Of a stretch of 64,000 nt of DNA, positions 2,056-59,332 are shown one piece after another; within the stretch, counting starts at the first letter, position 1; every line of letters begins with the position of its first letter. Location: the NCBI GenBank assembly GCA_947623925.1, contig CANQID010000002.1:25823-89822 (forward strand), read 5' to 3'. Below the pieces are notes generated by a model. The model saw only the letters and a program-made list of their open reading frames with translations, had not been told where the DNA came from and did not search any database. The position numbers and the translations under genes were made by a program. This DNA is from an uncultured Bacilli bacterium (lineage in GTDB: Bacteria; Bacillota_I; Bacilli_A; RF39; UBA660).

Positions 2056-2123
2056 AGTGTAGTGAATTTAGTATCTTTAGTGTATAATTATTATAGAAAA
2101 AACATTGGAATTTTGGTGATACG

Positions 2124-2309
2124 ATGGACAATAAAAATTTTGACGAAGAAGAGAAATATGGAGAAAAAGAAAAAGCAATAGCAAATATTATAAGTATTAC
2201 TATATTGTCATTAATAGGAATAGCAGTTATAGTATTTTTAACATTAAAGTATTTATCTAAAGAAATCTCAGAATATCATATGAAACAAAGTATTATTATT
2301 TGGAAGTAA
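2124..2309 (+). CDS. Small membrane protein (61 aa, one TM)
   Basis: ORF with a hydrophobic core 'IANIISITILSLIGIAVIVFLTL', lying between the coupling-protein gene and the giant gene. Confidence 0.35.
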   Translation: MDNKNFDEEEKYGEKEKAIANIISITILSLIGIAVIVFLTLKYLSKEISEYHMKQSIIIWK

Positions 2310-2374
2310 CTGATAAAAATAGAGAAGAAATAATCTCAAGAATTGAACAAGAAAATTAAGAGTATTGTGATTCT

Positions 2375-2521
2375 ATGTATAAAATAGAATTTCATAATTC
2401 ATTTCCAGATTCTACAGATTATACGATTTATTGTGGTGATGAAGGAAATATAACATTTTCAATTGATGGATCTGTTATTGCAACTTATATATTAGAGCAT
2501 GGAAGAACTGAATTAAGATAA
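2375..2521 (+). CDS. Small hypothetical ORF (48 aa)
   Basis: ATG...TAA ORF below the ORF-track cutoff in the gap before the giant gene. No motif was recognised. Confidence 0.2.
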   Translation: MYKIEFHNSFPDSTDYTIYCGDEGNITFSIDGSVIATYILEHGRTELR

Positions 2522-2592
2522 TTATTTAATGATATGAAATATGTTGTCATAATGACAACTTTTTTATTTTACAGAAAGGGGGAATTATAAAC

Positions 2593-8500: not shown

Positions 8501-8874
8501 AATTGGGTAGCATAAGTGGTTTTGATATTGTTGGTATAAAAGATGGATTATGGTATAAACCTATAATTTATATCAAAGGTGCAGGAAAATATAGGGTTGA
8601 GATAAACGATATAGACGAAATTGGTAACATTTATAAATTAGAAAATATGTTAAAAAGTTTTGAAAATAAGATAAATACAGTTAAAGAGCAAATAAGTTAT
8701 AACGAGAAACAACTTATCGATATAAAAGAAGAACTTGACAAACCTTTTAACCAACAAGATAGAATTAAAGAATTGCAAAAAGAAAAAGCTAGAATTGATA
8801 GTGAACTTGATTTAGATAAGCAGGAAAATATGACAAATTTAGATGAACTTGATGAAGAAGTGATTGAAAGATAA
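2593..8874 (+). CDS. Giant (2093 aa) N6-adenine DNA methyltransferase + SNF2/DEAH helicase fusion protein, DarB-like (probable anti-restriction protein of the mobile element)
   Basis: MTase motif I '[12 protein letters not shown]' (aa ~623) and motif IV 'GNVPFGNN' (aa ~686). Helicase motif I '[11 protein letters not shown]' (aa ~1300), 'DEAHMFKN' (aa ~1464) and HELICc '[25 protein letters not shown]' (aa ~1780). About 600 aa at the N terminus have no recognised domain, and the C terminus is coiled-coil. Confidence 0.75.
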
Positions 8875-9185
8875 AACTTTTTAGATTTTTTGCAAAAAAA
8901 CTCTTGCAAAATTTACTTTTTTAAGTGATAAATAAACTGAACAAAAAATGCTGTTAAACATATCTAATTCAAACGATATTAAAGGTGATGTGATAAATAC
9001 TAAAAAATAAAACCTCTTAAAACAGCTTTAAATAGTTCTTATGAAAGAAAAAGAAGAATTTAACCAAGATTTACTGAATTATATTACTGAAACAACAAGT
9101 AATGTCAGAAATTTAATAGATAAATTAGAAAAAAAGGAAGATATAAATAAATTAAAATTTTTAATTTTGAATCGATTGGATTGTA
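8872..9185. repeat. Degenerate duplicate (with two internal deletions) of the promoter/5'-gene module at 10879-11530
   Basis: About 110 bp are near-identical (8872-8990 vs 10879-10990). The copy then continues with fragments matching the start of the 11080 ORF and parts of the 11331 ORF. Confidence 0.8.
8904..8935 (+). promoter_or_regulatory. Putative sigma-A-type promoter (TTGCAA -35, about 17-nt spacer, TG-aTAAAT -10 region), copy 1
   Basis: The sequence 'TTGCAAaatttacttttttaagTGATAAAT' sits immediately after the giant gene's stop and is duplicated at 10911-10942. Confidence 0.35.
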
Positions 9186-9193
9186 TTATATGA
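9041..9193 (+). pseudogene. Chimeric 50-aa ORF fusing the N-terminus of the 11080 ORF to fragments of the 11331 ORF (decayed paralog, no Shine-Dalgarno)
   Basis: It translates to MKEKEEFNQDLLNYITE|TTSNVRNLIDKLEKKEDINKLKFLI|LNRLDCII. The RBS present in copy 2 ('gaaaggag') is deleted here. Confidence 0.45.
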
Positions 9194-9430
9194 TGCTAGT
9201 AAGGGACTGTTAAGAAATTAATCATTTAATTTTTGAACAGTTCCTTTGAACATGATTATAATTTTAAGTCTGGATGGTTACTGTTATTTAAAAAAACAAA
9301 AAACCAGAAATTAGTTGAAAAATGATTTTGAAAGTGATATACTCAAATTAGAAAAATCAGAAAGAGTTTCACAACATATAGATGGGAGGGATGACACAAT
9401 AATATAATGTTTTTTTGAAATTGATTTGAA

Positions 9431-9497
9431 GTATGTTGTATGTTGTGTGTTGTATGTTGTATGTTGTGTGTTGTGTGTTGTATGATGTATGCTGTAG
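9431..9497. repeat. GT-rich microsatellite, imperfect (TGTTGTRTG)n, about 7 units
   Basis: Direct reading gives 'gtatgttgtatgttgtgtgttgtatgttgtatgttgtgtgttgtgtgttgtatgatgtatgctgtag', about 80 bp upstream of the 9580 ORF. Confidence 0.85.
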
Positions 9498-9579
9498 ATT
9501 TTTTTAAGGTAAGGAGGTAGTATGAAAATAATTTTTGTTTTCATGACTATGTGTGCCTTGAATAAAGAGAAAGGAATGT

Positions 9580-10263
9580 GTGGTTATTATGAAAAAATTA
9601 AAAGAAAAAATTTTAAAGATTTTATTAGTAGCAGTACTTGCAGTACCATTTTTTTTATCAAACAGTTCAACTGTTTTAGCATATGAGTCAGACACAATTG
9701 ATGAGGCTTTTAAAAATTTACAAAATAAAATAGATTCTAAACTAGATATAGTGTATGATAATGGTGAATATGTTTACTCATATAATTATGATGATATTAA
9801 AGAAATAATATATAATTCTGGATTTGATTTTGAACAATTTAATGCCAAGTATGGAACAAATTATGACAAAACTTCATTTTTAAATGCTGTTATAACTTCA
9901 ATAGATAGTACAAAATTACATTCAAATGTAGCACCAATTGCAAATTATTGTAATCATGATGAAAGTACTCAAGGATGGAATTATTATAGAGAATTTATGT
10001 CAGAATCTGTGTCAAAAAATACCGTATCAGATTTAAGGCAAACAGCAACTAATTTTAGACTTGGTGGAACAGGAGTAGGGTTGTTAATAGGTACTGTTAG
10101 TAAATTATTTGGAGGAGTATTTAAATTGGGTACAGCATATGATGCTTGGTATTTTGATACATTAGCAAATTCAATAGAAGTTAATATGTCTGGTTGTGGT
10201 ACTGTAACTGACATCAATAAATTTACTACTGTATTTACTGTATGGGATCAAAGAGATTTTTAA
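9580..10263 (+). CDS. Secreted protein (227 aa) with signal peptide and a C-terminal Gly-zipper amphipathic region; putative toxin/bacteriocin-like cargo
   Basis: Signal peptide 'KKLKEKILKILLVAVLAVPFFLSNSSTVLA|YE' and a C-terminal 'LGGTGVGLLIGTVSKLFGGVFKLGTAYDAWYF'. The likelier start is the ATG at 9589. Confidence 0.5.
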   Translation: MVIMKKLKEKILKILLVAVLAVPFFLSNSSTVLAYESDTIDEAFKNLQNKIDSKLDIVYDNGEYVYSYNYDDIKEIIYNSGFDFEQFNAKYGTNYDKTSFLNAVITSIDSTKLHSNVAPIANYCNHDESTQGWNYYREFMSESVSKNTVSDLRQTATNFRLGGTGVGLLIGTVSKLFGGVFKLGTAYDAWYFDTLANSIEVNMSGCGTVTDINKFTTVFTVWDQRDF

Positions 10264-10280
10264 TAAGGAGGTAGCTATTA

Positions 10281-10538
10281 ATGAAATTGGGAAAAAAAAC
10301 CAGTAAGTATATTTATATAATAATATCTTTGCTAGCTGTTTTCTTACTTTTTTTAGGAATCGGTAAAGTGATTGAACTTAGATTGGCTTCATTACTTATT
10401 GAATTTTTGGTTTGTATTACATTTTTAATTGATTCTATTTTTAAGTTTAAAGAAGGTAAAAAGGCAGAAGCATTAACATTTTTAATTTTTGTTATATTAA
10501 TGGTTTTCTTTACTATTTCAAGTCTCCTAAATTATTAG
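10281..10538 (+). CDS. Small membrane protein (85 aa, 2-3 TM), candidate immunity/partner protein
   Basis: The RBS 'taaggaggtag' precedes it, it is hydrophobic throughout, and it lies 18 bp after the secreted-protein gene. Confidence 0.5.
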   Translation: MKLGKKTSKYIYIIISLLAVFLLFLGIGKVIELRLASLLIEFLVCITFLIDSIFKFKEGKKAEALTFLIFVILMVFFTISSLLNY

Positions 10539-10603
10539 TTTTTTGATTTTTTAAGTATATAATGAAAGGGTCTGTTTGGAAATTAAATTATTGATTTTAC
10601 GGC

Positions 10604-10697
10604 TCTTCGAAATCTAGTGGGGGAGTAAAAAATAGTTCTCATCGAAATTTGATGAGGACTTTTTTTCATATTATCTTCGAGTTTTAGTGAGGAGTAA
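10604..10697. repeat. Three imperfect about 24-bp direct repeats (iteron-like), consensus tcYtcgaRwtYtaGtGrGGAGta
   Basis: R1 is 10604-10628 'ctcttcgaaatctagtgggggagtaa', R2 is 10637-10660 'tctcatcgaaatttgatgaggact' and R3 is 10673-10697 'atcttcgagttttagtgaggagtaa'. Confidence 0.6.
10635..10668 (+). terminator. Rho-independent terminator after the secreted/membrane gene pair
   Basis: The stem 'ctcatc' + loop 'gaaattt' + 'gatgag' is followed by 'gactttttttc'. Confidence 0.5.
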
Positions 10698-10910
10698 CAA
10701 AAGGTTGTTATTCACTTTTTTATATGAGATAATTATTATATAATTTATATTACTAGAAAAGGCTCAAAAGTTTAAATGAATTATTATGATGAATTGGCTC
10801 ATCTAACATTAGCTGTTAGAATCATTTATGACTATTATAAATTTTAATTACGAAATTTGGTATAAAGAAAATCCAAATAAAACATTTTTAGATTTTTTGC
10901 AAAAAAACTC

Positions 10911-10942
10911 TTGCAAAATTTACTTTTTTAAGTGATAAATAA
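10911..10942 (+). promoter_or_regulatory. Putative sigma-A-type promoter, copy 2 (drives the 11080/11331 genes)
   Basis: Same sequence as 8904-8935, placed about 140 bp upstream of RBS 'gaaaggag' and the ATG at 11080. Confidence 0.35.
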
Positions 10943-11079
10943 ACTGAACAAAAAATGCTGTTAAACATATCTAATTCAAACGATATTAAAAGTGATGTGG
11001 AGGGTTTGGTAACTATAAGTACTAAAAAATAAAACCTCTTAAAACGGCTTTAATTAGTTCTTATGAAAGGAGTTTATTT

Positions 11080-11316
11080 ATGGAAGAAAAAGAAGAATTT
11101 AACCAAGATTTACTGAACTATATTACTGAAAATTTTAAGGCAACAATGGAAAGTGATTTTGAGGAAAAAGTTTATGGCTTTCCATATACAAGATGTCTTA
11201 ACACATTTTTTCAAAGGTTAAAGAAAGAATATAATATTGATTTTAATGCTGATTTTATAAGTGATAAATTATTAGATAAAGTTGTTGAAGAATTTTTATT
11301 AAATATAACTAAATAG
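11080..11316 (+). CDS. Hypothetical protein (78 aa)
   Basis: Good RBS 'gaaaggag'. Its N-terminus 'MEEKEEFNQDLLNYITE' is duplicated in the chimeric copy at 9041. Confidence 0.5.
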   Translation: MEEKEEFNQDLLNYITENFKATMESDFEEKVYGFPYTRCLNTFFQRLKKEYNIDFNADFISDKLLDKVVEEFLLNITK

Positions 11317-11330
11317 AGGAGGAATGATTT

Positions 11331-11834
11331 ATGTATATTACTGAAACGACAAGTAATGTTAGAAATTTAATAGAGGAATTGGAAAAAAAGGAAGATATAA
11401 ATAAATTAAAATTTTTAATTTATATATTTGGATTATTAAATAATGACCAAATAAATACTGATAATGAATTAAATCCTAGTTTAGTAGAAAAGGATGATAT
11501 GAAAATTTTTAATTTTGAATCAATTGGATTATCAAATAATATATGCACAATATTATTACAATATTTTTCTATGTTATATAATAATATGACAAATACAAAA
11601 GATACATATGAGGACAATGGAAATATTATTGGTGTTAATTATGATAAGGAAGATAAAGAAATTATTTCAAAATTTGAAAAACTTAAATTTAATGAAAAAT
11701 TAGATTTATTTAGTGAAATTATAATTAGATACGATAATGAAACTTACTTTGATAAAAAAATTACAAATCCCTTATTTAATTTAAGGTTGAGTGGATTTGA
11801 AATGGCAAAAATAATTAGAGATTTAAAAATATAG
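11331..11834 (+). CDS. Hypothetical protein (167 aa)
   Basis: RBS 'agaggagg'. The N-terminus 'MYITETTSNVRNLIEELEKKEDINKLKFLI' is partly duplicated at 9090-9170. No motif was recognised. Confidence 0.5.
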   Translation: MYITETTSNVRNLIEELEKKEDINKLKFLIYIFGLLNNDQINTDNELNPSLVEKDDMKIFNFESIGLSNNICTILLQYFSMLYNNMTNTKDTYEDNGNIIGVNYDKEDKEIISKFEKLKFNEKLDLFSEIIIRYDNETYFDKKITNPLFNLRLSGFEMAKIIRDLKI

Positions 11835-12000
11835 TATTAAATCTTTAGAGTGTTATTTGAAAACTTAATATTTAGATAGCATTCTATGGATAAATCTATC
11901 TTCATTACAATATTGAGTTTTCAAATAATGTATTAGGAACTCAATATTTAGAGTTCTTTTTTTCATTTATTCAAATAAGTTTAAATGAGGAGGAGAAATA

Positions 12001-12201
12001 TTGGACAATGGTCTTTCAATTAATATTGCTAAAAAAGAAATTCAAAAAGCAATTATTAATGAACTCTTTAAAAAAGGCGTAATAGATTTTTGTCAATGTA
12101 ACAACATTATAAAGAAGTTAGATGAAGATATTATAAAATTAGAAGATAAATTAGAAAATAAGGAAAATATGACAAATATAATAGTTAAAATTTCAATTTA
12201 A
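12001..12201 (+). CDS. Small acidic/coiled-coil protein (66 aa), candidate recombination directionality factor/regulator
   Basis: RBS 'gaggaggag'. It ends 2 nt before the recombinase RBS region, consistent with translational coupling with the recombinase gene. Confidence 0.4.
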   Translation: MDNGLSINIAKKEIQKAIINELFKKGVIDFCQCNNIIKKLDEDIIKLEDKLENKENMTNIIVKISI

Positions 12202-12218
12202 AAGTGGGAGGAATAACG

Positions 12219-13946
12219 ATGGTACTGAATTTGTATTCAATAAGAAATATTTTATCACAAGGAAAAAAATTAATAGATTTACCACTTCGCGTAACATTTT
12301 ATGCTCGTGTATCAACAGACCATGAAGAACAATTAAATTCATTAGAAAATCAGGTCATGTATTTTGAAAATTATATTAAATCACAAGCAAATTGGATATT
12401 TGTAAATGGCTATGTAGATGAGGGTATAAGTGGAACAAGTGTTAATAAAAGAGATAATTTTCTTAAGATGATAAATGACGCTAAAAAAGGAATGTTTAAT
12501 TTGATATTAACAAAAGAAATATCGAGATTTTCAAGAAATACTATTGATAGTATTCAATATACACAAGAATTATTATCTTATGGTGTTGGAATATATTTCT
12601 TAAATGACAATATTAATACATTTGATTCAGATTCAGAACTTCGTTTAACTATTATGTCATCTATTGCACAAGATGAAATAAGAAAATTATCAGAAAGAAT
12701 TAGATTTGGTTATAAAAGAAGTATTGAAAAAGGAGTAGTCCCTGGAAGTGATAATTTTTATGGTTATAAAAAAAATAAAGGTAAGTTGGAAATAGTAGAA
12801 GAAGAAGCAAAACTAATAAGACTTATTTTTAATGAATATAGTAAAGGAAAAATGGGTACTTCAAAACTAGGGCGTTATTTATATGATGAATATAATATTG
12901 TAAGTAAAACGAATAAAGCATTAGCAGGGGCTGTTATAACAAAAATAATTAGAAATCCAAAATATAAAGGTTATTTTTGCGCTCATAAGGAAACTACAAT
13001 TGACTATCATTCAAAAAAAAGAATTAGATTTAAACCAGAGGAATGGATATTATATAAAGACAATGAGTCATGTCCTCCAATAGTGTCAGAAGAACTATGG
13101 GAAAAATGTAATAAAATATTAGAAGAAAATTCTATAAAACATAAAACGAATACTAGAACTGATATGAGGTATGCTTTATCTGGGAAAATAAAATGTTATC
13201 ATGATGGGGCATCTTTCATAAGAGGTAGCTATAAAAATAGGAGAACAGGAGTAGAGAGCAAGTATTGGGGATGTTCTAATTACAGAAAATATGGAAAATC
13301 CAAAATTAATGGGTGTAGAACTCCTATTATATATTACAATGAATTATTAGATATATTTAAAAAAATAATAAATAATATATTAGATCAAGAAAATGGCGTA
13401 GTCGAAGAAATTTATGGATTAATTGATGAAATAGAACAGAAAACAGACTACACAAAAGAAATAAATGAGGTAGATAGAAAGATAATAGAAATAAAAAAAG
13501 CAAAATCAGAATTAATTAATATGAGGGCAAGAAAAGAAATAGAGAAAGATGAATATAACGAATCGAAAGAAAAATATAATAGTGAATTATTAACTCTTGA
13601 AGAGAGGAAACAAAAATATTTAGCAACAAGTTTAAAAGTAGACTACAAATCCAACATTAATGATTTTATCAAAAAAGTTCGTGATATAGTTTTAGAAGAT
13701 GACGAATCCGTTTTTAGTATATTTGGTTCTGTAATTGATAAAATATTAGTAGAAAAATTAGAATCAAAAGAAGATAATATTCATAAGATAATGTTACATT
13801 TTAAATTGAACATACTTGGCTACGATAAAAGTAGCTTAAATTTAAATGATTTTTTACTGCTTTTTAGTAACCACGACAGACGCAGTTGTGGCGCTTGCAG
13901 AAAAGATAGCGGGAACGGAAGAAATGTTTGTAGATATGATGAATAA
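12219..13946 (+). CDS. Large serine recombinase (resolvase/invertase catalytic domain + recombinase domain + zinc ribbon + coiled coil)
   Basis: The active-site context 'VTFYARVSTDHEEQLNSLENQ' is present. The protein is about 575 aa with a Cys cluster ('CPP...C', 'CYHDG...GCSNYRKYGKSKINGCR'). RBS is GGGAGG and ATG is at 12219. The 3' end overlaps the dac junction. Confidence 0.85.
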   Translation: MVLNLYSIRNILSQGKKLIDLPLRVTFYARVSTDHEEQLNSLENQVMYFENYIKSQANWIFVNGYVDEGISGTSVNKRDNFLKMINDAKKGMFNLILTKEISRFSRNTIDSIQYTQELLSYGVGIYFLNDNINTFDSDSELRLTIMSSIAQDEIRKLSERIRFGYKRSIEKGVVPGSDNFYGYKKNKGKLEIVEEEAKLIRLIFNEYSKGKMGTSKLGRYLYDEYNIVSKTNKALAGAVITKIIRNPKYKGYFCAHKETTIDYHSKKRIRFKPEEWILYKDNESCPPIVSEELWEKCNKILEENSIKHKTNTRTDMRYALSGKIKCYHDGASFIRGSYKNRRTGVESKYWGCSNYRKYGKSKINGCRTPIIYYNELLDIFKKIINNILDQENGVVEEIYGLIDEIEQKTDYTKEINEVDRKIIEIKKAKSELINMRARKEIEKDEYNESKEKYNSELLTLEERKQKYLATSLKVDYKSNINDFIKKVRDIVLEDDESVFSIFGSVIDKILVEKLESKEDNIHKIMLHFKLNILGYDKSSLNLNDFLLLFSNHDRRSCGACRKDSGNGRNVCRYDE

Positions 13947-14667
13947 AAGAGCAAAAGAATTAGGATTAACAGAAACTAACTTTAAAAATGTACATGGATT
14001 ACATGATACAAATCATTATTCAAGCGCATATGATATGTCAATAATAGCTAAAGAACTTGTAAAGCATGAAAAGCTATTTGAATACACGTCAATTTATGAA
14101 GACTACTTAAGACAAAACACAGATCGTAAAATATGGCTAGTTAATACAAATAAACTAGTAAGATTTTATAATGGTGTTGATGGATTAAAAACAGGATATA
14201 CAAAAGAAGCAGGATATTGTTTAACTGCAACAGCAAAAAAAGACAATATGCGTGTAATAGCTGTAGTAATGGGAGAACCCGATAGTCAAACAAGAAATAA
14301 AGAAGTAACGGAAATGCTAGATTATGCTTTTGCTCAATATGAAGTAGAAGAAATATTGTCAAAAAATAGTATTTTAGATAAAGTTAAAGTTTCAAAAGGA
14401 AAAGATGAATATGTAGAAATAGTACCAACACAACAAATAACATTTTTAAATAAAAAAACAGAACCTAAAAAAACAGCTACTTTTGATTTAAATATAAATA
14501 AACTATCTGCTCCTTTAAAAGTTGGAGATAAAGTAGGAACTATTAAAGTAAAAGAAGACGGAATAGAAAGAATAATAGATGTAACAGTTAAAAATGATAT
14601 AGAAAAAGCAAATATATTTGAAGTATATATAAGAAACTTAAAAGATATGCTTGTAGGCAATATGTAG
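13878..14667 (+). pseudogene. Interrupted D-alanyl-D-alanine carboxypeptidase gene (dacF/dacB/PBP5 type): C-terminal about 260 codons only
   Basis: The sequence 'DAVVALAEKIAGTEEMFVDMMNKRAKELGLTETNFKNVHGL...GLKTGYT...' aligns to PBP5-type enzymes from the SGN motif onward. The SGN motif is replaced by element-derived 'TTT', and the SxxK active-site serine region is absent. Confidence 0.65.
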
Positions 14668-17550: not shown

Positions 17551-19320
17551 ATGTTGGGTAATATAATAGGTACTGATGGTAATAAAGTAATTGTAAAACT
17601 AAAGGTAGAATTAGAAAAAATACATAATTTAATTAATTTATATGTAATTATGGAAGATGAAGAAAAAAAGTTTGTAGGAGAAATAATAGATATTAAAGAT
17701 GGTAATGCAATAATATCTTTACTCGGAGAATTTATGAATGAAAAATTTGTATTTGGTATTATGTCAAAACCATCATTTTCTGCTACAGTAAAATTAATTT
17801 CAAAAGAAAAAGCACCGCTTGTAATAGGTATTGATGACTATAAAGAAAACGTTCATTTATATATAGGAGAAAGTCCCACATATGAAGGTGTTAAAATAGG
17901 AATGAATGTTAATGACTTTTTTAGTAATCATTTTGCTATATTTGGTTCAACAGGAAGTGGTAAATCTTGTAGTGTAGCAAGAATATTACAAAATTTATTT
18001 TCTAAAGAAAAACAAATACCTTATAGAGCAAGTATATTTATATTTGATGCATATGGTGAATATCATAACGCATTTAAAGATTTACATAATAAAGTACCAC
18101 AAATAAATTTTAAAACATATACAACAAATACAAAATCAGATTCAGAACTTATAAGAATACCTATTTGGTTACTTGATACAGATGATTTAGCTATATTACT
18201 TGGTGTAGAAAAAAGTAGTCAAATACCTATAATAGAAAAAGCATTAAAATTAGTTACTATTTTTGGTAGAGAAGAAAAACTTGTTTTAAAACATAAAAAT
18301 GATATAATTGCAAGGGCATTACTTGATATATTATCAAGTGGTAAACAATCAACACAAATAAGGGACCAAATATTTTCTGTTTTATCACATTATCATACAT
18401 CAGAATTAAATCTAGAAACAGAAGTATTTCAACCTGGATATATAAGAACTTTAAAACAATGCTTATTAATAGATGCATCTGGTAAAATGAGAGAAATGGA
18501 ATTATTAGTTAATTTCATTGAAAAATATGTAGATGATACATTAGAATTAACAATGCCAGATAAATCTTTTAGATATACATTAAATGATTTGAGAGAAGCA
18601 TTTGATTTTGCTTTGATTTCAGAAGGTATATTAAAAAGTGATAAAGTATTTGATGAAGTTAATACTTTAAAAGTTAGGTTACATTCACTTATAAATAGTG
18701 ACTATGCCAAATTTTTCGAATATGATAATTTTATAACAGAGGAAGAATATATTAAAGATTTATTGTCAGCGCCTAATAATAGAAAAGCTCAAATTATAAA
18801 TTTTAATATTAATTATGTAGATGATAGATTTGCTAAAGCATTAACTAAAATATATTCAAAAATGTTATTTAATTATTCAAAAGATAGTAATCAAAAAACA
18901 ACATTACCTTTTCATATAATACTAGAAGAAGCACACAGATATGTACAAAATGATAATGATGTTTCTATATTAGGTTATAATATATTTGATAGAATAACTA
19001 AAGAAGGTAGAAAATATGGAGTTTTACTTGGACTTATTTCACAAAGACCATCTGAATTATCTTCAACTTCTCTATCACAATGTAGTAATTTCTTAATATT
19101 TAAAATGTTACATCCAACTGATATAAAATATATACAAGAAATGGTACCAAATATAACAACTGAAACAGTAGAAAAACTAAGAACGCTTCAGCCTGGAACA
19201 TGTATTGCTTTTGGTAATGCATTTAAGGTTCCGGTTTTAGTAAAACTTGAACTTCCAAATCCAACACCTTCAAGTGAAAGTTGTGATATAACTAATACAT
19301 GGTTTTTAGAAAAAGAGTAG
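17551..19320 (+). CDS. HerA/FtsK-like (DUF87) P-loop ATPase, solitary
   Basis: Walker A 'IFGSTGSGKSCS', Walker B/DEAH-like 'IILEEAHRYV', and an N-terminal barrel-like region of about 120 aa before the ATPase core. Confidence 0.55.
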   Translation: MLGNIIGTDGNKVIVKLKVELEKIHNLINLYVIMEDEEKKFVGEIIDIKDGNAIISLLGEFMNEKFVFGIMSKPSFSATVKLISKEKAPLVIGIDDYKENVHLYIGESPTYEGVKIGMNVNDFFSNHFAIFGSTGSGKSCSVARILQNLFSKEKQIPYRASIFIFDAYGEYHNAFKDLHNKVPQINFKTYTTNTKSDSELIRIPIWLLDTDDLAILLGVEKSSQIPIIEKALKLVTIFGREEKLVLKHKNDIIARALLDILSSGKQSTQIRDQIFSVLSHYHTSELNLETEVFQPGYIRTLKQCLLIDASGKMREMELLVNFIEKYVDDTLELTMPDKSFRYTLNDLREAFDFALISEGILKSDKVFDEVNTLKVRLHSLINSDYAKFFEYDNFITEEEYIKDLLSAPNNRKAQIINFNINYVDDRFAKALTKIYSKMLFNYSKDSNQKTTLPFHIILEEAHRYVQNDNDVSILGYNIFDRITKEGRKYGVLLGLISQRPSELSSTSLSQCSNFLIFKMLHPTDIKYIQEMVPNITTETVEKLRTLQPGTCIAFGNAFKVPVLVKLELPNPTPSSESCDITNTWFLEKE

Positions 19321-30189: not shown

Positions 30190-30372
30190 AATAGTAATAA
30201 ATATATTATTTTATAGAAAGTCAGTGGTTGATGAAAACTGATAATAAATGTTTATGAATCTACTCTTGAGAGAAATGAAAACATTTCCGGTAATACCGTT
30301 ATAAAAATTAAGAGACTGTGTAGGATGGTACCGCATGTATTTGCTCCTACAATATGTCTCTTTTTGTTAAAA
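30190..30372 (+). promoter_or_regulatory. T-box leader (tRNA-sensing riboswitch) upstream of serS
   Basis: T-box sequence 'gtaggatGGTACCGCatg' at 30321-30337. The terminator 'agagactgtgtagga...tcctacaatatgtctct' + 'ttttgtt' overlaps the antiterminator. Confidence 0.6.
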
Positions 30373-30389
30373 AAAGAAAGGAATATAAT

Positions 30390-31670
30390 ATGATAGATAT
30401 AAAATTAATAAGAGAAAATAAAGATATTGTAAAGGAAAATATAAAAAAGAAATTTCAAGATAACAAATTAATTTTGGTAGATGAAGTAGAAAAACTAGAT
30501 AAAGATTTAAGAGAGTTAAAAATACAAGGAGATAATTTAAGAAAAGAAAGAAATACTATTAGTAGTGAAATTGGAAGCTTAATGCGTGATAAAAAAATAG
30601 AAGATGCTAATAACAAAAAAGAAAAAGTAGTAGAAATAAATAATAAATTAGTTGATATTGAACAAAAAGAAAATGAATTAAAAGAAGAAATTAAAAATAG
30701 AATGATGTTAATTCCAAATATAATAGACGAAAGTGTTCCAATTGGAAAAGATGATACTGAAAATGTTGAAATTGAAAAGTTTGGAGAACCTGTAGTTCCT
30801 AGTTATGAAATACCATATCATGCAGATATAATGGAAAAGATGTCAGGTCTTGATAAAGAATCTGCTGGAAGAACAAGTGGTAACGGATTTTATTATTTAA
30901 TAGGTGATATTGCAAGACTTCATGAAGCAACGATTGCTTATGCAAGAGATTTTATGATTAATAAAGGCTTTACATATTGTATACCTCCTTTTATGATAAG
31001 AGGAGATGTCGTTAATGGAGTAATGTCTTTTGCAGAAATGGATTCTATGATGTATAAAATAGAAAATGAAGATTTATATTTAATAGGTACGAGTGAACAT
31101 TCTATGATTGGAAAATTCAAAGGACAGTTAATTGATGAAAAAGAGTTACCTATAGCAATGACTTCATATTCACCATGTTTTAGAAAAGAAGTAGGATCTC
31201 ATGGATTAGAAGAAAGAGGACTTTATAGAGTACATCAATTTGAAAAACAAGAAATGGTTGTTTTATGTAAACCTGAAGATTCTATGAATTGGTATAATAA
31301 AATGTGGAATTTTACTGTAGAATTTTTTAGAAGTTTAGATGTACCTGTTAGAACTTTAGAATGTTGTAGTGGGGATTTGGCTGATTTAAAAGTAAAATCT
31401 TGTGATGTTGAAGCATGGAGTCCAAGACAACAGAAATATTTTGAGGTTGGATCTTGTTCAACACTTGGAGATGCACAAGCAAGAAGATTAGGTATTAGAA
31501 TGAAAACAGAAAATGGCAACGAATATTTAGCAACTTTAAATAATACCGTAGTAGCATCACCAAGAGCTTTGATAGCGATAATTGAAAATAATTATCAAGA
31601 AGATGGAAGTATACTAATTCCAAAAGTATTACAACCATATATGGGTGGAAAAGAAAAAATTGGAATTTAA
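30390..31670 (+). CDS. serS: Seryl-tRNA synthetase
   Basis: N-terminal coiled-coil arm and class II core ('GLYRVHQFEKQEMV', 'FEVGSCSTLGDAQARRLGIR'). The start was moved to ATG 30390 (RBS 'aaaggaat') because the track ORF starts inside the T-box terminator. Confidence 0.9.
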   Translation: MIDIKLIRENKDIVKENIKKKFQDNKLILVDEVEKLDKDLRELKIQGDNLRKERNTISSEIGSLMRDKKIEDANNKKEKVVEINNKLVDIEQKENELKEEIKNRMMLIPNIIDESVPIGKDDTENVEIEKFGEPVVPSYEIPYHADIMEKMSGLDKESAGRTSGNGFYYLIGDIARLHEATIAYARDFMINKGFTYCIPPFMIRGDVVNGVMSFAEMDSMMYKIENEDLYLIGTSEHSMIGKFKGQLIDEKELPIAMTSYSPCFRKEVGSHGLEERGLYRVHQFEKQEMVVLCKPEDSMNWYNKMWNFTVEFFRSLDVPVRTLECCSGDLADLKVKSCDVEAWSPRQQKYFEVGSCSTLGDAQARRLGIRMKTENGNEYLATLNNTVVASPRALIAIIENNYQEDGSILIPKVLQPYMGGKEKIGI

Positions 31671-49971: not shown

Positions 49972-50124
49972 TTCTTTTTTTTTTATAAAATTATTAATTA
50001 ATAATTTTTATAAATCTGTAAAGTAGATATTAAAAACAATTATTTTTTAAATATTATTTTTATATGATACTTGACAAAAGTTATAAAGTTCATATATTAT
50101 ATACTTAGAATAGGAGAGTTGTAA

Positions 50125-52089
50125 ATGAGAAAAGGATTTACATTAGTAGAATTATTAGCAGTAATAGTAATACTTGCAATAATAGCGTTAATAACAGTAC
50201 CATTAATAATAAATATAGTGGAATCATCAAGAAAAGGAGCAGCAAGATCATCAGCATATGGATATATGGAAGGAGTAAATATATTTTATTCAAAAGAATT
50301 ATTAAAAGGAAGCAATTTTACATTAAATGGTACACTTAATGTAGATGAAAATGGATATTTAGAAGATAATAAAATAGAAGTAGAAGGAACAATGGCAAAA
50401 GGAGGACATTTAACATATAATAATGGAAAAGTAAGTGAAGGATGTCTAACAATAAATGAGTATAAAGTAAGTATAGAAAATGATGAAGTAACAAATGTAG
50501 AAAAAGGTAGTTGTGATGGAACAAGTACAGAACCTGTTGAACCTGTTATCGAAGAAAGTCCAACAGAATGGTTTATATTTGAAGATAATAGTGATGGAAC
50601 AGCAACATTAAAAAGTCTTTCTACTAAATGGGAAGAATTAGAAGATGAAAATAAATATAATATAGGAATTCCGTCAAAAACAGAAGAAGGAAAAGATGTA
50701 ACAATTATTGCTTCTAATGCTTTTGGACATTTAAATATAGAAAGTAAACATAATTTTTCTGTGTCAATTCCTGATACGGCTTTGAATATAGGTGAAAGGG
50801 CGTTCGCGGGTTCTGGAATTAAGAATGTAAAATTTGGAAACAATGTTCAAGAAATAGGACCAAGTGCATTTGCATCAACACACATTGATGGTGAAGATAG
50901 ATATAATTATTTAACTTCTATAAAAATCCCAAATAGTGTAATAACAATAGGAGAGGGTGCATTTGCTGAAAATAATATTACTAATTTAGATTTAGGAACA
51001 GGTGTACAAGTAATAGGGTATTCTGCATTTTATGAAAATAATCTTATTAGCGTGACAATTCCAGATAGTGTTACAACAATAAGCGGGAATCCAAATGGTT
51101 ATGAAGCATCTTATGCTCCTCGTACTGGTGCATTTGAAGCAAACAATCTTACAGATATAACAATTCCAAGTAGAGTTACATCAATAGGACAAAATGCATT
51201 TAAAAATAATATTATAAAAAATGTAATAATTCCAAATAGTGTAACAGAAATAGGGAATTCTGCATTTAATAATAATTTATTACCTGATGATCAAGCATTT
51301 ATTTATGAAAGAAATGATGATGGAACAGAGGATAAGAGTATATTAATTAGTTATGGAGGTGCAAAAAAGGATATAATAATCCCAGATAATGTTAAATCAA
51401 TAAAATATTCTGCATTTGAAAATAACAGTCTTACAAGTGTAACAATACCAAGAAGTGTAACAAAAATAGAAAATGGTGCATTTAATAATAATTTATTACC
51501 TGATGATCAAGCATTCATTTATAAAAGAAATGATGATGGAACAGAGGATAGGAGTACGGTAATTAGTTATGGAGGTGCAAAAAAGGATGTAATAATCCCA
51601 GATAATGTAATAACAATAGGAGAAAGTGCATTTTATGAAAATAATCTTACAAGTGTAACAATTTCAAATAATGTCATAACAATAGAAGATGGTGCATTTG
51701 CTGAAAATAATATTACTAATTTAGATCTAGGAACAAGTGTACAAGTAATAGGGGCTTTTGCATTCGATAATAATAATCTTACAGGAGAGTTAATAATTCC
51801 AAATTGCGTCACAGAAATAAAATATTATGCATTTATGGGTAATAATCTCACAAGTGTAGATATAGGAACTGGGGTCCAAATAATAGGGGGAAGTTCATTT
51901 GATAAGTATAAAGGTTCCGGTTCTGCATCAAATCCAAATTTAACAAAGATAATAAATAGAACAGGTAGAGCATTTGATTGGGGTAGTATAATTGGTGGTA
52001 GTAATGTACTTGGTGGTTTTGATCCTTTCGTAACAGGAGAAATCGAAACCGATGCTGGAAATGTTAGAATAACAAATGGTGAGGAATAA
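50125..52089 (+). CDS. Prepilin-type (type IV pilin-like) N-terminus fused to a large BspA-type leucine-rich-repeat surface domain
   Basis: Class III signal 'MRKG|FTLVELLAVIVILAIIALI' with Glu at +5. Repeated about 23-aa LRR units follow ('IPNSVTEIGNSAF', 'IPDSVTTISG', 'IPNCVTEIKYYAF'). Confidence 0.7.
   Translation: MRKGFTLVELLAVIVILAIIALITVPLIINIVESSRKGAARSSAYGYMEGVNIFYSKELLKGSNFTLNGTLNVDENGYLEDNKIEVEGTMAKGGHLTYNNGKVSEGCLTINEYKVSIENDEVTNVEKGSCDGTSTEPVEPVIEESPTEWFIFEDNSDGTATLKSLSTKWEELEDENKYNIGIPSKTEEGKDVTIIASNAFGHLNIESKHNFSVSIPDTALNIGERAFAGSGIKNVKFGNNVQEIGPSAFASTHIDGEDRYNYLTSIKIPNSVITIGEGAFAENNITNLDLGTGVQVIGYSAFYENNLISVTIPDSVTTISGNPNGYEASYAPRTGAFEANNLTDITIPSRVTSIGQNAFKNNIIKNVIIPNSVTEIGNSAFNNNLLPDDQAFIYERNDDGTEDKSILISYGGAKKDIIIPDNVKSIKYSAFENNSLTSVTIPRSVTKIENGAFNNNLLPDDQAFIYKRNDDGTEDRSTVISYGGAKKDVIIPDNVITIGESAFYENNLTSVTISNNVITIEDGAFAENNITNLDLGTSVQVIGAFAFDNNNLTGELIIPNCVTEIKYYAFMGNNLTSVDIGTGVQIIGGSSFDKYKGSGSASNPNLTKIINRTGRAFDWGSIIGGSNVLGGFDPFVTGEIETDAGNVRITNGEE
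51262..51610. repeat. Internal about 135-bp near-identical duplication within the LRR gene (two copies about 210 bp apart)
   Basis: 'aataatttattacctgatgatcaagcattt...ggaggtgcaaaaaaggat.taataatcccagataatgt' occurs at about 51262-51398 and 51474-51610. Confidence 0.8.
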
Positions 52090-52639
52090 TATGAAGAAAT
52101 ATATATTAATAACATTAATAACTGCGCTTATACTAACAGGATGTGGAAATAAAGAAAATAAAGTAATAGAAGAAGCAATAAATAATACAACAATAAGTAA
52201 TAATAAAATAACAAGTTATAGAGCAAAAGTAAAAATAAAAGGAAAAGATATAAATGAAAATTATATTGTAGAAAATAAAAACAATGAAGAATATGAAATA
52301 ACTATAAATGATGAAGAAGAAAAAGTAATAACAATAAAAGATGGAAAATCAAGTGAAGAAACAAAATATGACTATACAAAAACAGATTTATTTATAGAAC
52401 AATTAAAAGAAATAGAAAAAACAAATGAAAGAAAAGAAACAATAGGAAATGAAGAATATACAATATATGAATTTAAAATAAAAAAAGATGACATAAATAA
52501 AATATTAAATATATTTAATAAAACAACAGAAGAAGAAGGAACAGGATATGTATATTTAGATAGTAAAAATAATGTATATATAGTAAACTACGATATAGAT
52601 GGAATAAATATAAATGTAAGTTATACTAGATTAAAATAA
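52076..52639 (+). CDS. Lys/Glu-rich lipoprotein (187 aa)
   Basis: Lipobox 'ILTGC'. It overlaps the 3' end of the LRR gene by 14 nt. Confidence 0.5.
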   Translation: MVRNNMKKYILITLITALILTGCGNKENKVIEEAINNTTISNNKITSYRAKVKIKGKDINENYIVENKNNEEYEITINDEEEKVITIKDGKSSEETKYDYTKTDLFIEQLKEIEKTNERKETIGNEEYTIYEFKIKKDDINKILNIFNKTTEEEGTGYVYLDSKNNVYIVNYDIDGININVSYTRLK

Positions 52640-52771
52640 GTTTCATGTTTAACATGATTCTTTTTTTTAAATGTAAAATTATAATTATTGTAAAATAACA
52701 TATATTATGGTATCATGTATAATGAATTTTAATTAATAATAAATTTTATTAACTTATTGAGGAGAAAAAGT

Positions 52772-58600: not shown

Positions 58601-59332
58601 GTGAATAAAATGAATGAAGAAAATAACAATTTAAGTAATGGCATAAACAACAGTGGAAATACAGTAAAGGTAGTATTAATAACACTATTAGTTGTAGTAG
58701 TAATAGGTTTGATAGGATTTATAGTATATGATAAAGTAATTAAAAAAGATAATGTAGGTAACAATCAAACAAATACTGGAGAAAATAGTAATCAATCGAA
58801 TTCAGGAATAAATAATGAAAATCAAGAAAATAATAATAATGGAGAAAATAATAATAATTTTACTGAATCAAAAAATAAGTATTCTTTAGTAAGTGTTTCT
58901 TCTGAAGAACAAAATGAAATAGATAGATATAGTGAGCCATTTGGTAGTGAAGTTCTTTCGGATGGAAAGTCTATTACAGCTGGTACTGGATGGGAATACG
59001 GAATAGAAAATGCAAATACTGTAATATTTTATAGTGATGGTATTGAAACTAAAATAAAATTAGACGAAAATGTAAAATATTGGGTACCGATTTTTAGTTT
59101 TGATGATGAAAAAAATTATGATTCGGCATATTTTTTAACTGAATCTGGAAAACTATATGTTTGTGATGATAGTTGTTTAAAAACTGGTAAGGACATGAGT
59201 GATTTAGAATATATTTTAACAAATACTAAAATTGAAGGATTGGGTAGTTTTGCTTTAGATTCAACCGGTAATGATACTTTGTGTGTAAAGACATCCGATG
59301 ATGGAATAAAAAAATTAGTTATTAATGAATAA
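58601..59332 (+). CDS. Membrane-anchored protein with Asn/Gln-rich linker (243 aa)
   Basis: TM 'VVLITLLVVVVIGLIGFIVY', then 'NQTNTGENSNQSNSGINNENQENNNNGENNNN', then a globular C-terminal domain. Confidence 0.4.
   Translation: MNKMNEENNNLSNGINNSGNTVKVVLITLLVVVVIGLIGFIVYDKVIKKDNVGNNQTNTGENSNQSNSGINNENQENNNNGENNNNFTESKNKYSLVSVSSEEQNEIDRYSEPFGSEVLSDGKSITAGTGWEYGIENANTVIFYSDGIETKIKLDENVKYWVPIFSFDDEKNYDSAYFLTESGKLYVCDDSCLKTGKDMSDLEYILTNTKIEGLGSFALDSTGNDTLCVKTSDDGIKKLVINE

What the first reader, a model, noticed from the sequence alone, without database searches (positions are those of the whole stretch)
50125..52639. Orphan type IV prepilin leader fused to a BspA-type LRR adhesin domain with an internal recent duplication
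The N-terminus is a textbook class III (prepilin peptidase) signal with Glu+5. The remaining ~600 aa are leucine-rich repeats of the BspA/Treponema LRR type, which are found in host-adhesion proteins. A ~135-bp segment is duplicated nearly identically within the gene, indicating ongoing repeat expansion. No pilB/pilC/pilD or com genes are nearby. Such a protein could be a pilus-tip or pseudopilin adhesin, an unusual combination.
Basis: partly seen in the sequence, partly recalled or inferred. Interest (0 to 1): 0.5.

Follow-up and report, generated by a model that had tools for sequence, protein, structure and literature searches.

The report
Type IV pilin carrying an LRR adhesin
This gene from an uncultured low-GC gut Bacillus-class bacterium encodes a complete type IV pilin fused to a large leucine-rich-repeat binding domain; the design is already catalogued as a "modular pilin" but has never been studied experimentally, so this is a new example of a known kind.

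Summary
The observation largely holds. Window 50125-52089 (+) encodes a 654-aa protein with a class III (prepilin) signal, MRKG|FTLVE with Glu+5, and a BspA-type LRR_5 region (E 1.7e-68). The stated end, 52639, is wrong: it takes in a separate co-transcribed lipoprotein gene (52091-52639).

The N-terminus is a whole pilin module, not just a leader. It has a 54-residue alpha1 helix, a small beta-sheet head and a conserved Cys pair. It is 40-52% identical to stand-alone ~137-aa pilins.

The "nearly identical 135-bp duplication" is 137 nt at 93% identity, inside a 216-nt tandem unit at 84%.

The fusion is not unusual. 68 of the 120 best homologs have it, and Raynaud et al. 2021 list IPR012902-IPR026906 among the commonest modular-pilin architectures, with no function assigned.

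No pilus genes lie in the window. Relatives (SerRS 72-80% identical) carry a conserved pilC-pilD pair. I could not test whether this genome has one.

A paralog in the same assembly shares a 98.8%-identical pilin module and has a divergent LRR region.

Verdict: a probable pilus-displayed adhesin, a new member of a known kind, of modest interest.

The parts
50071..50100 (+). Promoter-like site, TTGACA-16/18 nt-TATATT/TATTAT
   Evidence: 11 of 12 matches to the sigma-70 consensus. It lies inside the 49991-50124 stretch that is 94% identical to the upstream region of the paralog. This is a consensus match only; function is inferred.
50112..50118 (+). Ribosome-binding site AGGAGAG, 6 nt before the ATG
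   Evidence: Read directly from the sequence.
50125..52089 (+). CDS of the 654-aa modular type IV pilin (stop codon included)
   Evidence: ORF. The same gene is called on ENA ERZ27249657 NODE_71. Pfam N_methyl + LRR_5.
50125..50136 (+). Predicted leader peptide MRKG, with cleavage expected after Gly4
   Evidence: TIGR02532 and PF07963 score above their cut-offs. Gly or Ala at -1 in homologs. Cleavage itself is inferred.
50137..50304 (+). alpha1 helix (aa 5-60): hydrophobic alpha1N with Phe+1 and Glu+5, then amphipathic alpha1C
   Evidence: AF2 helix at 7-60, pLDDT about 82-92. T6 and E9 invariant. Sequence matches to the solved pilins MshA 9lab (5.8e-7) and S. sanguinis PilE1 8pfb (4e-4).
50305..50514 (+). 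Pilin globular head (aa 61-130): 4-5 beta-strands with the Cys107...Cys130 pair
50515..50568 (+). Pro/Glu-rich linker (aa 131-148, DGTSTEPVEPVIEESPTE)
   Evidence: pLDDT below 50 at residues 133-138. Only 78% nt identity to the paralog from this point onward.
50569..51924 (+). BspA-type LRR_5 solenoid (aa 149 to about 600)
   Evidence: PF13306, E 1.7e-68. AF2 pLDDT mostly above 90. Foldseek matches LRR_5 surface proteins 4fs7 (2e-12), PcpA 4cp6, 4h09, 4gt6 and TpLRR 6mlx.
51154..51585 (+). Tandem duplication of a 216-nt (72-aa, three-repeat) unit
   Evidence: 84% identity.
51256..51392 (+). Near-identical core, copy 1 (copy 2 at 51472-51608)
   Evidence: 128/137 = 93% identity. In 45 codons there are 1 synonymous and 6 non-synonymous differences. 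It encodes the insert-bearing repeat NNLLPDDQAFIYxRNDDGTED..ISYGGAKKD.
51472..51608 (+). Near-identical core, copy 2
51925..52086 (+). Conserved C-terminal cap (SNPNLTKIINRTGRAFDW...GNV). No sortase motif and no C-terminal TM segment.
   Evidence: Conserved in the A1 consensus. 88% nt identity to the paralog. AF2 strands at 608-650.
52091..52639 (+). Co-transcribed 182-aa lipoprotein gene (MKKYILITLITALILTGC...). Function unknown.
   Evidence: Starts 2 nt after the pilin stop, with its RBS GGTGAGGA inside the pilin 3' end. The gene is called in L001. No Pfam match. A 32%-identical lipoprotein lies directly downstream of the LRR pilin in L011.
52644..52668 (+). Possible weak terminator: TCATG-TTTAA-CATGA hairpin followed by a T-run
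   Evidence: Read directly from the sequence. The terminator scan did not report it because the stem is AT-rich.

Best explanation
The gene encodes a modular (bimodular) type IV pilin. The proposed mechanism has four steps.

1. The prepilin is inserted in the membrane through its hydrophobic alpha1N.
2. A PilD-type prepilin peptidase cleaves after Gly4, removing MRKG, and methylates Phe+1.
3. The 130-residue pilin module (54-residue alpha1, beta-sheet head, Cys107-Cys130 loop) is taken up by a type IV filament machinery through alpha1 packing, with Glu+5 in register.
4. A flexible Pro/Glu-rich linker holds a solenoid of about 450-500 residues, of the BspA/LRR_5 type, away from the filament. 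Given its bulk, this is most likely at the tip, where it would act as the adhesin for a host or microbial surface ligand.

In mechanism it would work like Streptococcus sanguinis PilB (vWA module) and PilC (lectin module).

Shown here: the domain architecture, the conservation of the processing and assembly residues, the predicted fold, the homology of the module to stand-alone pilins, and the presence of pilC-pilD in relatives.

Inferred: cleavage, incorporation into a filament, tip location, adhesion and the ligand.

The gene has its own promoter and forms a two-gene unit with a small lipoprotein. The same genome holds at least one paralog with the same promoter and pilin module and a different LRR module.
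For: - Class III signal above curated cut-offs (PF07963 and TIGR02532).
- T6 and E9 invariant and F5, L7, L10-I14 at least 90% conserved in 53 homologs. Gly or Ala at -1 in 68 of the 120 best hits.
- AF2 model of the full protein, pLDDT 89.3: helix 7-60, sheet 69-127, disordered linker, LRR solenoid. Module-only model, pLDDT 84, gives the same elements.
- Conserved Cys pair, with C130 invariant.
- The module alone retrieves 670 proteins. The best are stand-alone 126-145-aa N_methyl pilins at 40-52% identity over 80-98% of its length, and some are named PilA by JGI.
- The LRR region matches solved LRR_5 surface proteins, including the pneumococcal adhesin PcpA and TpLRR.
- Relatives with SerRS 72-80% identical to the window's carry dnaG-sigA-trmK-yqfQ-pilC-pilD. 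The pilC C-terminal domain has 5837 homologs at E<=1e-30.
- LRR pilins lie 3-7 kb from pilC-pilD in L014 and L003.
- Class III pilins are embedded in Tad-like loci (TadE x2, TadZ, T2SSE, T2SSF x2) in L051 (Pfam scan). L084 shows the same ORF layout and ATPase Walker motif but was not scanned against Pfam.
- The architecture is catalogued as a modular pilin, and PilB of that class is a proven adhesin (PMC8179133).
Against: - No prepilin peptidase, platform protein or assembly ATPase in the 64-kb window or in the 10 kb upstream.
- The pilC-pilD pair that sits just upstream of serS in four relatives (L003, L014, L079, L096) is absent upstream of the window's serS, where polA lies instead.
- I could not show that this genome has any type IV machinery. 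Three candidate PilC proteins looked up came from other samples.
- No canonical PilB/PilT ATPase is adjacent to pilC-pilD in the gut-Bacilli loci.
- There are no expression, processing or binding data.
- The large number of big class III proteins per genome is more than classical pili use as minor pilins.
Confidence: 0.68

Rival explanations
1. Surface display without a filament. The class III signal and pilin module serve only as a membrane anchor or export tag, comparable to archaeal class III signal sugar-binding proteins (the "bindosome"). The LRR domain would then be held at the cell surface and not polymerised into a pilus.
For: - The gene is an orphan among housekeeping genes here and in L002, L004 and L088.
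- Genomes of this lineage encode many large class III proteins. 73 of 100 complete ORFs in the fetched loci are at least 200 aa, there are tandem arrays such as five copies of about 685 aa in L010, and the grafted modules are diverse. That looks more like a general display system than a set of minor pilins.
Against: - A full pilin head and Cys loop are conserved, not just the signal.
- The module is homologous along its length to stand-alone pilins of ordinary size.
- Glu+5, which matters for assembly more than for cleavage (established T4P knowledge), is invariant.
- Modular pilins of S. sanguinis are filament-borne (PMC8179133).
Confidence: 0.17
2. It is a minor pseudopilin of a competence (ComG) pseudopilus or of a T2SS- or Tad-like short filament, not of a long adhesive type IV pilus.
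For: - Weak N-terminal similarity to ComGC, ComGE, ComGF and GspG models.
- Monoderm host.
- Tad-like loci carrying class III pilins exist in the lineage: L051 by Pfam scan, and L084 by shared ORF layout and ATPase motif.
Against: - All Com and Gsp model scores are far below their cut-offs and cover only the shared alpha1N: ComGC 25.7 against 75, GspG 21.8 against 88.85.
- A 500-aa LRR module has no known role in DNA uptake.
- TadE/Flp-type pilins have a different signature. The pilin here is of the GFTLxE type.
Confidence: 0.08
3. It is a functionless relic. The genome has lost its pilus machinery, and the N-terminus now acts as an uncleaved type II membrane anchor or the gene is decaying.
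For: - pilC-pilD are missing from the position upstream of serS where four relatives have them.
- No machinery in about 74 kb examined.
Against: - The 654-codon ORF is intact, with a strong promoter-like site and an RBS.
- A second intact paralog has a 98.8%-identical module with 3 synonymous and 2 non-synonymous changes.
- In L089 pilC-pilD are followed by sepF, not serS, so the serS adjacency is variable.
- Only about 10% of a genome of roughly 1.5 Mb was seen. That size is taken from a relative's 1.49-Mb chromosome, OW818670.1.
Confidence: 0.07

Closest known systems
Modular type IV pilins as defined by Raynaud et al. 2021 (PNAS 118:e2102092118; PMC8179133): S. sanguinis PilB (pilin + vWA) and PilC (pilin + lectin)
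   Same: An N-terminal IPR012902 class III motif and a small pilin module are joined by a short linker to a bulky, generic binding domain. The host is a monoderm. The predicted role is a filament-presented adhesin. The exact architecture IPR012902-IPR026906 (BspA-type LRR) is in their Dataset S1 with 18 + 6 proteins.
   Different: The grafted module here is an LRR_5 solenoid, for which that paper states no clear function. The gene is not in a pil operon. It has a same-genome paralog with an almost identical pilin module. Nothing has been tested experimentally.
BspA-type LRR_5 surface proteins: Tannerella forsythia BspA, pneumococcal PcpA (4cp6), T. pallidum TpLRR (6mlx), and JCSG gut-bacterial LRR proteins 4fs7, 4h09 and 4gt6
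   Same: The same repeat family (PF13306, E 1.7e-68) and the same solenoid fold (Foldseek E 2e-12 to 1e-5). These are surface-exposed, and several are adhesins according to their depositors or the literature (my own knowledge for BspA and PcpA).
   Different: Those proteins use Sec or lipoprotein signals, choline-binding domains, or T9SS or other anchors. None has a pilin module.
HupY/LrrG LRR adhesin of Streptococcus agalactiae (NCBIfam NF047961)
   Same: It is the best-scoring NCBIfam model for the LRR region (138.7 bits).
   Different: The score is far below the equivalog cut-off of 1250, and only repeats match. The protein is not a member.
Large tip-located minor pilins with extra domains: ETEC CofB, T2SS GspK and Thermus ComZ (discussed in PMC8179133)
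   Different: In those proteins the extra domains are system-specific and not recognisable generic modules. In GspK the extra domain is inserted within the pilin fold.

Membership tests
Type IV pilin (type 4 filament subunit) | Class III signal peptide: a short basic leader ending in Gly or Ala, then Phe/Met +1 and Glu +5 | tested here: met
   MRKG|FTLVE. PF07963 scores 26.0 against 21.2 and TIGR02532 scores 29.3 against 16.3. T6 and E9 are invariant in 53 homologs.
Type IV pilin (type 4 filament subunit) | alpha1 helix of about 50 residues with a hydrophobic N-terminal half | tested here: met
   AF2 helix 7-60 in two independent models. This is a prediction, not a solved structure.
Type IV pilin (type 4 filament subunit) | Globular head: an antiparallel beta-sheet packed on alpha1C, recognisably similar to solved pilins | tested here: inconclusive
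Type IV pilin (type 4 filament subunit) | C-terminal disulfide-bonded loop, common though not universal | tested here: met
   Cys107 and Cys130. C130 is invariant, and a partner Cys is present in all but one of the 17 aligned modules. The bond itself is inferred.
Type IV pilin (type 4 filament subunit) | A cognate prepilin peptidase (Peptidase_A24) and assembly machinery in the same genome | not testable with these tools
   None in the window or in the 10 kb upstream. Present in relatives L003, L014, L079, L089, L090 and L096. The rest of this genome could not be reached.
Type IV pilin (type 4 filament subunit) | Cleavage, N-methylation and polymerisation into a filament | not testable with these tools
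   Requires experiment.
Modular pilin (Raynaud et al. 2021) | [quoted passage not shown] | tested here: met
   N_methyl + pilin module + linker + LRR_5. The architecture is listed in their Dataset S1, and IPR026906 is the BspA-type LRR region.
BspA-type LRR (Pfam LRR_5, PF13306) | Score above the gathering threshold, and an LRR solenoid fold | tested here: met
   228.8 bits against 27.7. Foldseek matches 4fs7, 4cp6, 4h09, 4gt6 and 6mlx.
Competence pseudopilins ComGC/ComGE/ComGF | NCBIfam equivalog score above the cut-off | tested here: not met
   ComGC 25.7 against 75, ComGE 19.7 against 49, ComGF 16.4 against 80. The matches cover alpha1N only.
T2SS major pseudopilin GspG | TIGR01710 score above the cut-off | tested here: not met
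   21.8 against 88.85.
HupY/LrrG adhesin (NF047961) | Equivalog score above the cut-off | tested here: not met
   138.7 against 1250.

The most novel reading that the evidence does not exclude
Uncultured small-genome gut Bacilli may use type IV filaments as a programmable display scaffold. Each genome would carry many class III "carrier" pilin modules fused to different binding or enzymatic modules, including LRR_5, DUF6273, DUF285, Ig-like, EndoS/GH18-like and many with no Pfam match. Within a genome, the promoter and pilin module would be kept nearly identical by gene conversion (98.8% nt identity here) while the adhesin modules diverge (70-78%) and change repeat number. That would give a cassette-like repertoire of alternative pilus-tip adhesins for host or niche variation.
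Probability: 0.3. Interest if true: 0.55.

Novelty: new member of a known kind. Interest (0 to 1): 0.3.

Why it matters
LRR-type modular pilins are common in metagenomes. They make up more than half of the closest LRR_5 relatives of this protein, and LRR_5 is the most frequent identifiable module among large class III proteins of these gut Bacilli. Yet none has been characterised, and the one survey that lists the architecture assigns it no function.

If these proteins are pilus-tip adhesins, they are likely colonisation factors of an abundant, uncultured, low-GC gut lineage. The paralog pair found here gives a concrete system for testing module swapping on a constant pilin carrier.

For the scan itself, the finding is real but ordinary in kind. 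It is not a new architecture.

Tried and rejected
1. Prepilin peptidase in the same genome. I searched the PilC C-terminal domain of a relative and looked up three candidates: P0150, P0163 and P0149. All came from other samples.
2. One look-up was wasted on window 58601-59332, because the gene on record starts at a different codon.
It sampled pilin-module relatives and not specifically LRR pilins, and it did not recover the window's own species.
5. ComG or GspG membership is rejected on NCBIfam scores.
6. HupY/LrrG equivalence is rejected on score.
7. The idea that P0002 was an ortholog from a related strain is rejected. It lies on a different contig of the same assembly at the same coverage (7.65x against 7.62x) and the same GC content, in a different gene neighbourhood.
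8. A conserved partner role for the downstream lipoprotein is not established. I found only one other locus (L011) with a homolog in the same position.
9. My crude LRR regex undercounted LRR proteins. I replaced it with a Pfam scan.
Full report
**What is at the coordinates**

The finding spans two genes, not one. The first is window 50125-52089 (+), a 654-aa ORF. The second is 52091-52639 (+), which encodes a 182-aa protein with a lipoprotein signal (MKKYILITLITALILTGC). It starts 2 nt after the first stop codon, and its ribosome-binding site lies inside the end of the first gene.

Upstream of the first gene there is a near-consensus promoter-like site, TTGACA-16/18-TATATT, at 50071-50100 (11 of 12 matches), and an AGGAGAG ribosome-binding site. 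After the lipoprotein gene there is only a weak AT-rich hairpin followed by a T-run.

The window is 24% G+C. It comes from a spore-former: SpoVG, YabP, GerQ and YabG are nearby. It lies on a 98.6-kb metagenomic contig, ENA ERZ27249657 NODE_71, at 7.6x coverage.

**Checking the observation**

- The N-terminus MRKG|FTLVELLAVIVILAIIALI passes the curated thresholds of both prepilin models. PF07963 scores 26.0 against 21.2 and TIGR02532 scores 29.3 against 16.3.
- It is the only such motif in all six frames of the window.
- The rest of the protein matches LRR_5 (BspA type) at E 1.7e-68.
- The internal duplication is real but less clean than described. A 216-nt (72-aa) unit is repeated in tandem at 84% identity (51154-51369 / 51370-51585). 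Within it, 137 nt (51256-51392 against 51472-51608) are 93% identical.
- That core encodes an insert-bearing repeat, NNLLPDDQAFIYxRNDDGTED..ISYGGAKKD. The motif is conserved in distant homologs and present 0, 1, 2 or 3 times per protein, in 29, 20, 26 and 2 of 77 proteins respectively. Copy number therefore does vary in the family. Part of the similarity, however, reflects constraint and AT-biased codons.
- No T2SSE, T2SSF or Peptidase_A24 gene lies in the window or in the 10 kb upstream of it.

**Anatomy**

I aligned 53 homologs (A1) and ran AlphaFold2 on the alignment. The model is confident, with mean pLDDT 89.3. It contains:

- one continuous helix, residues 7-60;
- a small sheet with strands at 69-73, 94-99, 102-110, 113-118 and 121-127;
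- a low-confidence Pro/Glu-rich linker, roughly residues 131-148;
- an LRR solenoid from about residue 150 to 600, followed by a conserved C-terminal cap.

A module-only model (residues 1-138, pLDDT 84) gives the same elements.

Cys107 and Cys130 bracket the last strands. C130 is invariant, and a partner Cys is present in all but one of the 17 aligned modules. This is the usual position of the pilin disulfide loop.

The N-terminal 130 residues are therefore a complete pilin module, not just a leader.

Sequence searches agree. Against the PDB, the module hits only pilins: MshA 9lab at 5.8e-7, S. sanguinis PilE1 8pfb at 4e-4, plus PilA, FimA and GspG. Against the metagenomic protein set, it retrieves 670 proteins. 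The best are stand-alone 126-145-aa N_methyl proteins, 40-52% identical over 80-98% of the module, and some are named PilA by JGI.

The LRR part matches solved LRR_5 surface proteins of gut bacteria (4fs7, 4h09, 4gt6), the pneumococcal antigen PcpA (4cp6) and TpLRR (6mlx).

**How common is the fusion?**

It is common. Of the 120 best hits to the whole protein, 68 start with a class III motif, either G|FTLxE or A|FTLIE, followed by LRR_5. In the 53-sequence alignment, T6 and E9 are invariant, and F5, L7 and L10-I14 are at least 90% conserved.

The genome-collection scan places relatives of the pilin module almost only in uncultured animal-gut MAGs. These are labelled Bacilli, Tenericutes, Mycoplasmatota or Erysipelotrichaceae, and often several loci come from one genome.

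In those loci I found 122 class III ORFs of 120-1666 aa. Of 72 that are complete and at least 250 aa, 71 match N_methyl. LRR_5 is the commonest identifiable grafted module (15 proteins), followed by DUF6273, DUF285, Ig-like, EndoS/GH18-like and ALK_LTK_GRD. Most carry no Pfam domain beyond N_methyl.

**What is already known**

Raynaud et al. 2021 (PMC8179133) defined modular pilins as an IPR012902 pilin module carrying a grafted generic domain. They showed that S. sanguinis PilB (vWA module) is a pilus-borne adhesin.

Their Dataset S1 lists IPR012902-IPR026906 with 18 proteins, plus 6 with two copies, as the 7th most frequent architecture. The text groups it with modules of "no clear function". 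[quoted passage not shown]

A literature search for BspA, leucine-rich repeat and type IV pilin returned only three papers. None of their titles or abstracts concerns such a fusion, and I did not read them.

**Machinery**

The window's SerRS is 80%, 76% and 72% identical to those of L003, L079 and L014. Those genomes, together with L089, L090/L091 and L096, carry a conserved block: dnaG-sigA-trmK-yqfQ-pilC-pilD. PilC there has a Lys/Glu-rich N-terminal extension of about 300 aa, and pilD is a Peptidase_A24 gene. The PilC C-terminal domain has 5837 homologs at E<=1e-30.

LRR pilins sit 3-7 kb from this pair in L014 and L003.

In L051, a class III pilin is embedded in a Tad-like locus comprising TadE x2, TadZ, a T2SSE ATPase and T2SSF x2. 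L084 shows the same ORF layout and the same ATPase Walker motif, but I did not scan it against Pfam.

The lineage therefore has prepilin peptidases and type 4 filament machinery. For the window's own genome I could not show this. In the window, serS (30354-31670) is preceded by polA and not by pilC-pilD. The three PilC candidates I could look up came from other samples. In L089, pilD is followed by sepF and not serS, so the serS adjacency is not fixed.

**A paralog in the same genome**

The closest homolog, P0002 (444 aa), lies on another contig of the same assembly, NODE_497. Its coverage is 7.65x against 7.62x, its GC content is also 24%, and its neighbours are different, with secG upstream.

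The two genes compare as follows:

| Region | Identity |
|---|---|
| 133 nt upstream | 94% |
| 405 nt encoding the pilin module | 98.8% (400/405; 3 synonymous and 2 non-synonymous codon changes) |
| Linker and N-cap | 78% |
| LRR region | 70-78% |
| C-terminal cap | 88% |

P0002 has one copy of the insert-bearing repeat, where the window gene has two.

This pattern fits a recent duplication or gene conversion of promoter plus carrier module, with divergence and repeat-number change in the binding module. That reading is an inference from two genes.

**Interpretation**

The best explanation (confidence about 0.68) is a PilD-processed modular minor pilin that presents an LRR_5 adhesin on a type 4 filament, probably at the tip.

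The rivals are:

- surface display through the pilin-like anchor without polymerisation (0.17), supported by the orphan location and by the large number of big class III proteins per genome;
- a Com, T2SS or Tad pseudopilin role (0.08), not supported by the family scores;
- a relic in a genome that has lost its machinery (0.07), argued against by two intact paralogs that are kept homogeneous.

**Verdict**

The architecture is already catalogued, so this is a new member of a known kind. Its interest is modest: it lies mainly in the untested function of LRR-type modular pilins and in the constant-carrier, variable-module paralog pair.

Noticed in passing
window 88-14667: The first ~14 kb is the end of a conjugative element. 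It carries a VirD4-like coupling protein (88-2055), a 2093-aa SNF2/helicase protein (2593-8874) and a large serine recombinase (12204-13946). T4SS genes (TraC-like/DUF87, Peptidase_M23, SSB) lie upstream in L005. The adjoining Peptidase_S11/PBP5 ORF (13846-14667) matches only profile positions 102-237, so the dac gene looks interrupted by the element.
   Followed up: partly
window 17551-19320; L094 8214-10414; L095; L029; L038: The window's HerA-like DUF87 ATPase has orthologs (70-73% and 49% identity) that are each immediately followed by a class III pilin gene, in four loci from at least three genomes. In the window the next gene is instead a minus-strand radical-SAM gene. I have no explanation for this synteny between a non-T2SSE ATPase and pilins.
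   Followed up: partly
L088 10001-11335 (ENA ERZ27249657 NODE_497): This is a same-genome paralog (P0002, 444 aa). Its pilin module is 98.8% nt-identical and its upstream region 94% identical, but its LRR region is only 70-78% identical and it has one fewer insert-bearing repeat.
   Followed up: yes
P0004, P0005, P0010-P0016 and others (hits): A second large group of close LRR_5 relatives lacks the pilin module. Instead it carries an N-terminus with the motif SYAYF(T/A)AT, precomputed PF12389 (camelysin/TasA family), and weak sub-threshold matches to TIGR04090 (BsaA, a SipW-dependent biofilm matrix protein). The same LRR module may therefore be grafted onto a different fibre-type scaffold.
   Followed up: partly
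L003 147-3172; L079 5506-8474; L014 774-3863; L089 10001-12848; L096 10001-12912: In this lineage pilC and pilD form a stand-alone pair after dnaG-sigA-trmK-yqfQ. PilC carries a Lys/Glu-rich N-terminal extension of about 300 aa, and no PilB/PilT-type ATPase is adjacent.
   Followed up: partly
L051 9992-16069; L084 79-7164: In L051 a GFTLxE-type class III pilin (334 aa) is embedded in a Tad-like locus just upstream of murC: TadE-like x2, TadZ/ParA-like, a T2SSE ATPase and T2SSF x2 (Pfam scan). L084 holds a 341-aa class III pilin with a matching ORF layout and ATPase Walker motif, but its ORFs were not scanned against Pfam.
   Followed up: partly
L010 4444-15202: Five tandem paralogs of about 685 aa each carry a class III signal, in one uncultured Bacilli MAG. 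In another MAG (L008) a single class III protein of 1666 aa has 14 LRR_5 stretches.
   Followed up: no
window 52091-52639; L011 12503-13120: A small lipoprotein with no Pfam match lies directly downstream of the LRR pilin. A 32%-identical lipoprotein (E 5e-12) occupies the same position after the LRR pilin of a distant Bacillota MAG. The pairing is absent from the other loci checked.
   Followed up: partly
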